Assembly: GCA_051599415.1 (NCBI GenBank)
Contig: AP039712.1
Location: 62,001-126,000, forward strand
DNA from: Savitreella phatthalungensis
Lineage: Eukaryota
Reading direction: 5' to 3'
Length of the DNA stretch: 64,000 nt
Positions within the stretch are counted from its first letter, which is position 1. The number at the start of each line of letters is the position of its first letter. This document shows positions 1,885-2,223 of the stretch, piece by piece. The notes beneath the pieces were generated by a model. The model saw only the letters and a list, made by a program, of their open reading frames with translations, did not search any database and was not told the origin of the DNA. The translations under genes and the position numbers were made by a program.

Positions 1885-2223
1885 ATGGCTGGTACTGGAT
1901 CGCTGATTGTTGAGGTCATCCTCGACATTATTCTGCCCCCACTGGATAAGTAGCCCCCGTGTGCCGGCTGCGGAAGTCTGCTGGATCTCTATTTGATTCG
2001 AAGTGAAGCGCTTGCGCTCTCTCCCTTTTGCCATCATCTGAGTTTCACCCCGCAGACACAAGCACCGGTCGATCGCATACACACAATCAAGAACTAACAC
2101 ACAGCACGCGTCCTCCTGAGCTCCGGCTGCGGCGGTCTCTTCATCGTCTCTATCCTCTTGACCATCCTCGGTTGGATTCCTGGCTTGATCTTTGCACTCT
2201 ACTGCACCTTCCGCAACCGCTAA
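1885..2223 (+). CDS. PMP3: Pmp3/SNA-family plasma-membrane proteolipid, 58 aa; exons 1885-1945 and 2108-2223, non-canonical intron 1946-2107
   Basis: Manual translation: MAGTGSLIVEVILDIILPPL-G-VLLSSGCGGLFIVSILLTILGWIPGLIFALYCTFRNR*. It has the family motifs (I/L)LPPLGV, GCG and LLTILGWIPGxxxAL. Not in the ORF track. Confidence 0.85.

What the first reader, a model, noticed from the sequence alone, without database searches (positions are those of the whole stretch)
1885..2223. PMP3 gene interrupted by an apparent U2-type AT-AC intron
Seen: exon 1 reads ...ILPPL + G and is followed by ATAAGT (1946), this genome's donor GTAAGT with G1 changed to A. Reading through hits TAG two codons later. A branch point ACTAAC (2093) is followed by ACACAGCAC. 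Splicing to the CAC ending at 2107 rebuilds GGC and the conserved Pmp3 motif PPLGV, and the rest of the protein is intact. The nearby CAG (2104) is also in frame but gives PPLARV and lies only 6 nt after the branch hexamer, versus about 10 nt or more in the other introns here. Established: a G1A donor change is compensated by a terminal C because the first and last intron bases interact, and minor-spliceosome donors read ATATCC, which this does not. Inference: a natural major-spliceosome AT-AC intron. At 162 nt it is about three times the typical intron length here, and it may throttle or stress-regulate a cold/salt-stress proteolipid. Standard gene predictors would miss it.
Basis: partly seen in the sequence, partly recalled or inferred. 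Interest (0 to 1): 0.88.

Follow-up and report, generated by a model that had tools for sequence, protein, structure and literature searches.

The report
Fungal PMP3 gene with AT-AC intron
A small fungal stress-membrane protein gene is split by a rare intron that begins with AT and ends with AC instead of GT and AG, and a public sequencing run holds exactly the predicted spliced form, so the intron is real but belongs to a rare kind already known.

Summary
ATG is at 1885. Exon 1 ends at 1945 (…PPL plus one G) and is followed by ATAAGT (1946-1951) and an in-frame TAG. ACTAAC lies at 2093-2098, CAG at 2102-2104 and CAC at 2105-2107. Exon 2 (2108-2223) is a Pfam Pmp3 match.

The decisive result is. 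An 8,441-nt contig of public run X2 (same sample as the likely source run X1) joins 1945 directly to 2108. It skips 162 nt with ends AT..AC, has no ambiguity at the joint and no other difference in the flanks. X1's contig keeps the 162 nt, with A at 1946. X2's library type is not on record, so that it is RNA is my inference.

Homology agrees. Of 369 possible in-frame junctions, 1945/2108 scores best (80.6 bits) against a profile of relatives. The CAG junction scores 75.4 and breaks an invariant PP-x-x-V spacing.

The signals are major-spliceosome type: /ATAAGT and ACTAAC, not ATATCC. The nearest relatives of a neighbouring gene are mostly ascomycetes, a group reported to lack U12 splicing.

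U2-type AT-AC introns are known in animals and have been reported in fungi, so this is a new member of a known kind. The proposed throttling or stress regulation is untested.

The parts
1885..1945 (+). PMP3 exon 1: ATG, first transmembrane stretch ending ...PPL, plus the first base (G) of the split Gly codon (phase 1)
   Evidence: frame 1717..1953. The X2 contig ends this side of the joint at 1945.
1946..2107 (+). 162-nt AT-AC intron
   Evidence: Skipped as one piece, with ends AT..AC, in the X2 contig (table 5). Present in the X1 contig (table 8). In-frame TAG at 1951-1953. No Rfam match. Fold no better than shuffles, z -0.24.
1946..1951 (+). 5' splice site /ATAAGT: the local GTAAGT donor with A at +1
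   Evidence: It is the only ATAAGT-type AT-AC candidate in the window. It matches the /ATAAGT consensus of metazoan U2-type AT-AC introns (PMC5029451).
2093..2098 (+). Branch-site hexamer ACTAAC. The presumed branch A is 2097, 10 nt before the last intron base.
   Evidence: ACTAAC occurs 8 times against 35 for ACTGAC in the window, both strands. Its role as branch site is inferred and not mapped.
2102..2104 (+). Bypassed CAG, 7 nt after the presumed branch A. It is in frame but would insert a residue (PPLARV).
   Evidence: Not used in the X2 contig. The junction scores 75.4 against 80.6 bits.
2105..2107 (+). 3' splice site CAC/ (terminal AC)
   Evidence: In the X2 joint the first base after the skip is 2108, with both=0.
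2108..2223 (+). PMP3 exon 2: completes GGC (Gly), then V..., the loop and second transmembrane stretch, and stop TAA at 2221-2223
   Evidence: Pfam PF01679 match. Frame 2098..2223. It is the only Pmp3-like frame in the window.

Best explanation
This is a functional single-copy PMP3/RCI2-type proteolipid gene of an intron-poor, probably ascomycete fungus. Its only intron (1946-2107, 162 nt, phase 1 in the Gly codon of the PPLGV motif) has AT-AC ends but otherwise major-spliceosome (U2-type) signals. The likely mechanism is as follows. U1 and U6 recognise /AUAAGU, which matches the local GTAAGT donor at every position but +1. U2 pairs with a perfect ACUAAC branch site. In the second step, the A at intron position 1 pairs with a terminal C instead of the usual G-G pair. 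The spliceosome therefore passes over the CAG 7 nt after the branch A and ligates at the CAC 10 nt after it. The product is a 58-residue protein with the family's normal PP-x-x-V spacing. What is shown: the sequence features, the joined form 1945/2108 in a public run, and the best fit of that junction to relatives. What is inferred: that the run is RNA, that the major spliceosome does the work, and which base is the branch point.
For: (1): an X2 contig (8,441 nt, depth 678.6) lies on 1500-1945 and 2108-2600 with 0 other letters. The joint 'skips 162, ends AT..AC, both=0'. With no shared letters at the joint, a k-mer assembly cannot make this join unless reads span it. The flanks include promoter and intergenic DNA, so it is the native locus and not a retrocopy. 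(2): X2 holds 0.93 of the sampled words of 1200-4200. The words touching the intron are 192 of 2,971, or 6.5%. So X2 lacks only the intron. (3): the X1 contig (depth 41.9) keeps the intron, with A at 1946. (4): PP-x-x-V is invariant in 20 of 20 aligned relatives. Junction 1945/2108 is the best of 369 in-frame junctions (80.6 bits). The CAG junction scores 75.4, and the two canonical GT-AG options I scored reach 64.3 and 59.6. (5): exon 2 passes Pfam Pmp3, starting at profile position 16. This leaves 15 positions for exon 1 plus the split codon. (6) Literature, passages read. Metazoan U2-type AT-AC introns have a strong /ATAAGT consensus, and an engineered AT-AC intron splices in yeast (PMC5029451). 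The first and last intron bases pair, G-G or A-C (PMC11585973). U12 splicing is reported missing in Ascomycota and Basidiomycota (PMC2846911). (7): the nearest Atlas clusters of the neighbouring HisG protein are mostly Ascomycota.
Against: X2 is listed as 'DNA?' (a guess) with no library on record, and no holder is on record as RNA. The tool warns that a joined form in a DNA run exists as DNA. X2's longest contig is 47,406 nt, and its contig runs through intergenic DNA (1500-1885, 2224-2600). Both would be more usual for DNA than for RNA. X1 and X2 are one sample and one study, so there is no independent replicate. No close relative's gene could be found to show conservation of the AT-AC ends. 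Of 80 metagenomic Pmp3 loci, 79 have no intron at this site. One (L040) has an ordinary GT-AG intron 4 nt upstream. The organism's snRNA set could not be checked, because no genome is held.
Confidence: 0.85

Rival explanations
1. X2 is a DNA library, and the 162 nt are present in some genome copies of the sample and absent in others. This would be an intron presence/absence polymorphism, or a recent insertion into an intronless gene, rather than splicing seen in RNA.
For: X2 is labelled 'DNA?', its longest contig is 47 kb, and its contig covers intergenic DNA continuously. 79 of 80 other Pmp3 loci have no intron at this site.
Against: X1 and X2 are the same sample and show 0 other differences over 938 shared bases. 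A DNA deletion that by chance begins at a donor-like ATAAGT, ends 10 nt after an ACTAAC and restores the invariant PP-x-x-V spacing is very unlikely. A precise loss through a spliced cDNA would itself imply splicing at AT-AC. There is no target-site duplication or shared letters at the joint (both=0).
Confidence: 0.06
2. The intron is mainly or also spliced AT-AG to the CAG at 2104 (junction 1945/2105). This would give a one-residue-longer protein (PPLARV), and the AC junction would be only one of two isoforms.
For: The CAG is in frame, is the first AG after the branch site, and still scores 75.4 bits. Contigs drop rare variants, so a minor isoform would not be seen (tool text).
Against: The only joint reported is 1945/2108. 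PPLARV breaks a spacing that is invariant in 20 of 20 relatives. The CAG is 7 nt from the presumed branch A, against 11-14 nt in the likely introns of the window. An A at +1 with a terminal G is the combination that the first-last base pairing disfavours (PMC11585973).
Confidence: 0.04
3. The gene is a decaying pseudogene, or position 1946 is an assembly error for G.
For: A single G-to-A change in a GTAAGT donor is the simplest way to obtain ATAAGT.
Against: An independent Logan assembly of X1 at depth 41.9 gives A, with 0 differences. The joined form uses AC and not the AG that a GT donor would use. Both exons are intact, and the spliced product scores 80.6 bits. The contig carrying the joined form has depth 678.6.
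Confidence: 0.02
4. The intron is removed by the minor (U12-type) spliceosome or by some non-spliceosomal route.
For: Most AT-AC introns in animals and plants are U12-type (PMC7072748). For the yeast RPL30 AT-AC intron the mechanism was left open (PMC5029451).
Against: The donor is /ATAAGT and not /ATATCCTT. The branch site is ACTAAC and not TCCTTAAC (the latter motif is recalled). U12 splicing is reported absent from Ascomycota and Basidiomycota (PMC2846911). The window's HisG is nearest to ascomycete clusters.
Confidence: 0.02

Closest known systems
U2-type (type II) AT-AC introns of animals, e.g. human SCN4A/SCN5A (Sheth et al. 2006, PMC1557818, passages read)
   Same: AT and AC ends, and a donor that matches the major-class consensus except at +1 (/ATAAGT; PMC5029451). 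Very rare: 24 of 610,067 introns in five species.
   Different: This one is in a fungus with short introns and a yeast-like ACTAAC branch site 10 nt from the 3' end. It has no polypyrimidine tract, and an in-frame CAG 3 nt upstream is passed over. Dependence on U2 is not shown here.
AT-AC introns reported in Dikarya fungi: Ganoderma lingzhi (13 of about 92,000 junctions, one confirmed by Sanger sequencing; PMC11590231), Trichoderma longibrachiatum (69 of 14,305 RNA-seq junctions; PMC4324775), and xylanase genes of filamentous fungi (hypothesised; PMC1557818)
   Same: AT-AC ends in fungi that are reported to lack the minor spliceosome. Gene predictors miss them and break the gene.
   Different: The gene (PMP3) and the organism differ. 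I did not see the donor or branch sequences of those introns, so I cannot say whether they share /ATAAGT.
S. cerevisiae: the engineered AT-AC intron (Parker and Siliciano 1993, as cited in PMC5029451) and the endogenous AT-AC intron nested in the RPL30 intron (Gould et al. 2016, PMC5029451)
   Same: An A at +1 is tolerated when the last base is C, through the first-last base interaction.
   Different: The RPL30 event makes up 1-2% of mRNAs, lies inside another intron, and its donor does not resemble /ATAAGT. Here the AT-AC intron is the only way to make the protein, and its donor is a perfect /ATAAGT.
Pmp3 / RCI2 / YqaE proteolipids (Pfam PF01679)
   Same: Size of 58 residues, the PP-x-x-V motif, the G-C-G loop and the LTILGWIPG helix.
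   Different: The sequence is rather divergent. No protein of 22-72 aa shares three 5-residue words with exon 2, and the best relatives are about 55-65% identical over 33 residues. Phe stands where most relatives have His in the I-H-A-L-Y stretch.

Membership tests
U2-type (type II) AT-AC intron | Intron begins AT and ends AC | tested here: met
   1946-1947 is AT and 2106-2107 is AC. The joint is reported with ends AT..AC.
U2-type (type II) AT-AC intron | The 5' splice site matches the major-class consensus except at +1 (/ATAAGT) | tested here: met
   ATAAGT at 1946-1951. Local likely donors are GTAAGT. The consensus is quoted in PMC5029451.
U2-type (type II) AT-AC intron | The intron is actually removed at exactly these ends | tested here: met
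   The X2 contig joins 1945 to 2108, with both=0 and 0 other letters. Caveat: X2's library type is not on record, so RNA is inferred.
U2-type (type II) AT-AC intron | Splicing depends on U1/U2/U4/U5/U6 and not on U11/U12/U4atac/U6atac | not testable with these tools
   No genome is held for the window, so the snRNA genes could not be searched. Absence of U12 splicing in Ascomycota is taken from PMC2846911, and the taxon only.
U12-type AT-AC intron | Donor /ATATCCTT and a TCCTTAAC-like branch site close to the 3' end | tested here: not met
   The donor reads ATAAGTAG and the branch region reads GAACTAACA. The donor consensus is from PMC5029451. The branch consensus is recalled.
Pmp3/RCI2/YqaE proteolipid (PF01679) | Match to the Pfam model above its gathering score | tested here: met
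   Exon 2 alone scores 42.7 bits against a cut-off of 22.9, E 5.5e-11, profile positions 16-48 of 49.
Pmp3/RCI2/YqaE proteolipid (PF01679) | Conserved N-terminal PP-x-x-V motif at fixed spacing before the loop | tested here: met
   Invariant in 20 of 20 relatives. It is rebuilt only by junction 1945/2108, at 80.6 bits, the best of 369.
Pmp3/RCI2/YqaE proteolipid (PF01679) | Small two-helix membrane protein that modulates membrane potential and stress tolerance | not tested
   The length of 58 residues was computed. Membrane topology and function were not examined.

The most novel reading that the evidence does not exclude
The intron is a constitutive, efficiently removed major-spliceosome AT-AC intron in an ascomycete, in which the pairing of the first and last intron bases makes the spliceosome skip a perfectly placed in-frame CAG for a CAC 3 nt further on. 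The balance between the two sites (PPLGV against PPLARV protein), or between spliced and unspliced RNA, might shift with salt or cold stress. That would make it a natural regulatory switch for a stress proteolipid.
Probability: 0.1. Interest if true: 0.6.

Novelty: new member of a known kind. Interest (0 to 1): 0.45.

Why it matters
This is a clean natural example of a textbook second-step rule: an A at intron position 1 needs a C at the last position. It sits in a fungal gene whose protein can only be made through this junction, and a competing CAG lies 3 nt upstream. That makes it a handy natural substrate for studying 3' splice-site choice. In practice, predictors restricted to GT-AG would either miss this gene or choose the in-frame 1949/2121 model, which deletes four conserved residues. 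The case therefore argues for allowing AT-AC junctions when fungal genomes are annotated. It does not open a new kind of biology.

Tried and rejected
No RNA holder was listed for 1200-4200. Runs X3 and X4 (small shares, other organisms) laid nothing on 1500-2600, so they gave no relative's gene.

No whole genome is held. Paralogues, snRNA genes and genome-wide AT-AC counts could therefore not be examined.

The word-based homologue search found nothing among proteins of 22-72 aa. Longer and shorter lengths were not searched.

The metagenome scan gave 80 Pmp3 loci but no close relative; the best was 80% identity over 25 residues. My motif test called 70 of 80 contiguous at the site. Reading the other 10 rows, 9 (L020, L036, L042, L057, L062, L065, L070, L072, L076) are contiguous in a shifted register or with a variant motif. 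Only L040 has an intron. Many of the 80 are bacterial and can say nothing about introns.

An RNA gene or unusual structure hosted in the intron was rejected. There was no Rfam match at E up to 1 in 1700-2400, and the fold z-score is -0.24.

A crude ORF-continuity scan for other AT-AC introns found 14 candidate rows. Only 1946 has ATAAGT. The rest are ATGAGT rows with short flanks and no support.

Earlier notes of this scan held nothing on this genome or sequence.

The place where the X2 contig would end, if collinear (about 4350, in AT-rich intergenic DNA), was considered as a hint of a transcript end. I dropped it, because contigs cannot show RNA ends.

The paper search for PMP3 + intron + AT-AC gave 0 papers.

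Full report
**What is in the sequence**

An ATG at 1885 opens a frame that runs through ...I-L-P-P-L (CTG at 1942-1944) and a G at 1945. ATAAGT follows at 1946-1951, and reading through gives GAT AAG TAG, with the stop at 1951-1953 (ORF 1717..1953).

ACTAAC lies at 2093-2098, followed by ACACAGCAC at 2099-2107. That stretch holds CAG at 2102-2104 and CAC at 2105-2107. The frame 2098..2223 is open. Its residues 5-37 match Pfam PF01679 (Pmp3) at profile positions 16-48 of 49, with E 5.5e-11 and 42.7 bits against a cut-off of 22.9. The 22 residues of the upstream frame alone give no Pfam hit at E up to 1, which is expected for so short a piece. The intervening stretch is 162 nt.

**No ordinary intron fits**

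I listed every pair of exon 1 end (1890-1952) and exon 2 start (up to 2199) that keeps the frame open. There are 2,174 such pairs, and only 5 have GT or GC at the start and AG at the end. All five remove conserved residues. The least damaging is 1949/2121 (GTAGCC...CTGAG), which deletes four residues including an invariant Val.

**Direct evidence for the junction**

One search listed six runs and none on record as RNA. X1 holds 1.00 of the sampled words of 1200-4200 and X2 holds 0.93. Both are from one sample and study, and both are marked 'DNA?' as a guess with no library on record.

I laid X1-X4 on 1500-2600:
- X1 gives one contig (47,201 nt, depth 41.9) that covers the whole stretch with 0 differences. 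It includes the 162 nt and A at 1946.
- X2 gives one contig (8,441 nt, depth 678.6) that lies on 1500-1945 and 2108-2600 with 0 other letters.
- The joint table reads 'from 1945 to 2108, skips 162, ends AT..AC, both 0'.
- X3 and X4 laid nothing.

The 7% of words missing in X2 equals the share of words that touch the intron (192 of 2,971, or 6.5%). So X2 lacks the intron and nothing else in 1200-4200.

No letters are shared between the two sides of the joint. A k-mer assembler therefore cannot create this join unless reads span it. The flanks carry promoter and intergenic DNA, so the contig represents the native locus and not a retrocopy.

**Is X2 RNA?**

This is not on record. The case for RNA is an inference. 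Two runs of one sample, identical at every other base, differ by a clean removal that starts at a donor-like hexamer, ends 10 nt after a branch-site hexamer, and restores a conserved motif in frame.

Against it, X2 has a 47-kb longest contig, and its contig runs through intergenic DNA. That is more usual for DNA, although deep RNA data from a compact genome can do it too.

If X2 were DNA, the simplest account would be a precise intron loss through a spliced cDNA. That would still imply splicing at these ends. I put about 0.9 on RNA and 0.06 on a DNA polymorphism.

**Homology picks the same junction**

An exhaustive HMMER search with exon 2 found 54 proteins at E up to 1e-3. I fetched 31 of them and aligned 20 short ones (A1). 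P-P, the Val three residues on, and a Gly of the loop are invariant in 20 of 20, so the PP-x-x-V spacing is fixed.

I built a profile from A1 and scored all 369 in-frame, stop-free junctions with exon 1 ending at 1920-1952 and exon 2 starting at 2040-2129. The scores:

| Junction | Type | Bits |
|---|---|---|
| 1945/2108 | AT-AC, gives PPLGV | 80.6 (best of 369) |
| 1945/2105 | AT to the CAG, gives PPLARV | 75.4 |
| 1949/2121 | canonical GT-AG | 64.3 |
| 1891/2105 | canonical GT-AG | 59.6 |
| exon 2 alone | none | 58.3 |

The CAG junction adds a residue. The window holds no second Pmp3-like frame.

**Which spliceosome**

The donor is the local GTAAGT with A at +1. Likely canonical introns of the window start with GTAAGT (12320, 12721, 42507, 45306; lengths 81, 55, 59 and 72 nt; branch A 11-14 nt from the 3' end). 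These four were picked by ORF continuity only.

The branch hexamer ACTAAC is the form fully complementary to U2. It is the rarer form here, with 8 copies against 35 of ACTGAC in both strands.

From passages I read:
- Gould et al. [quoted passage not shown]
- A 2024 review states that the first and last intron bases form a non-Watson-Crick pair, G-G or A-C (PMC11585973).
- Bartschat and Samuelsson conclude that U12 splicing is missing in Ascomycota and Basidiomycota (PMC2846911).

The neighbouring HisG protein is nearest to Atlas clusters that are mostly Ascomycota. I could not search the organism's snRNA genes, because no genome is held.

**Why CAC and not CAG (inference)**

After the presumed branch A (2097), AC dinucleotides end at 2100, 2102 and 2107, which is 3, 5 and 10 nt away. 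The AG ends at 2104, 7 nt away. The first two ACs are out of frame and very close to the branch. The AG would have to pair with an A at +1, the disfavoured combination. The AC at 10 nt sits close to the 11-14 nt seen in the four likely canonical introns here.

**Relatives**

The metagenome scan returned 80 Pmp3 loci and none is close. 79 are uninterrupted at this site, and many of them are bacterial. One fungal-looking locus, L040, has a 60-nt GTAAGC...CAG intron in phase 0 between PP and L, 4 nt upstream of the window's site. So the intron position is not widely shared. Whether sister species keep AT-AC is unknown.

**The intron itself**

It has no Rfam match at E up to 1. Its fold is no better than shuffles (-38.3 kcal/mol, z -0.24). 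It is two to three times longer than the four likely introns named above.

Nothing bears on the idea that it throttles or stress-regulates expression. The absence of intron words from X2 would, if X2 is RNA, hint at efficient removal. But contigs drop rare variants, so this is not evidence.

**What is known**

- Sheth et al. 2006 counted 24 U2-type AT-AC introns among 610,067 in five animals and plants. They note that xylanase genes of filamentous fungi were hypothesised to have such introns (PMC1557818).
- In Ganoderma lingzhi, 13 AT-AC junctions were annotated and one was confirmed by Sanger sequencing (PMC11590231).
- In Trichoderma longibrachiatum, 69 of 14,305 RNA-seq junctions were AT-AC (PMC4324775).
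- Frey and Pucker found AT-AC to be very rare in fungal annotations (PMC7072748).

For all of these papers I read only the passages returned by term searches. A search for PMP3 + intron + AT-AC found 0 papers. Searches turned up no report of this gene.

**Verdict**

This is a real AT-AC intron with major-spliceosome signals in a fungal PMP3 gene, with the exact predicted junction seen in a public run. It is a new member of a rare but known kind. Interest is moderate (0.45): a neat natural test case for 3' splice-site choice and a warning for annotation, but not a new mechanism.

Noticed in passing
window 46635-46734 (-): Rfam finds a tRNA (56.1 bits) spread over 100 nt for a 71-position model, so it probably carries an intron. 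ARAGORN in its bacterial setting finds no tRNA in the window.
   Followed up: partly
L040 1370-1600: A metagenomic fungal-looking Pmp3 gene has a canonical 60-nt GTAAGC...CAG intron in phase 0 between PP and L. That is 4 nt upstream of the window's intron site, so the position is near but not identical.
   Followed up: partly
P0043; L003 247-321; L004 1501-1575: Several fungal relatives carry an intron after the W-I-P-G stretch. In P0043 the predicted protein reads straight through it, giving a 23-residue insertion in the alignment. The window's gene has no intron there.
   Followed up: no
window 1549-1752 (-): On the opposite strand, upstream of PMP3, a GTAAGT ... ACTGACTAACTTTAG pair 204 nt apart looks like an intron. 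The X2 contig runs through it unbroken, and the flanking frames have no Pfam match.
   Followed up: partly
window 8202-8260 and 4188-4204 (+): There are short runs of GTGA/GTGAGT repeats, which produce many false donor matches in pattern scans.
   Followed up: no
window 1-16100 and 47518-52971: Neighbouring genes by Pfam: the end of an MRS2/CorA Mg transporter (1-489 +), a SRF-type MADS-box factor (2798-3664 -), the Arg5,6 fusion (5255-7795 -), HisG (8755-9708 +), an ERCC4 nuclease (13184-16096 +) and a Sen1 helicase (47518-52971 -). Most are long single ORFs, so the genome is intron-poor.
   Followed up: partly
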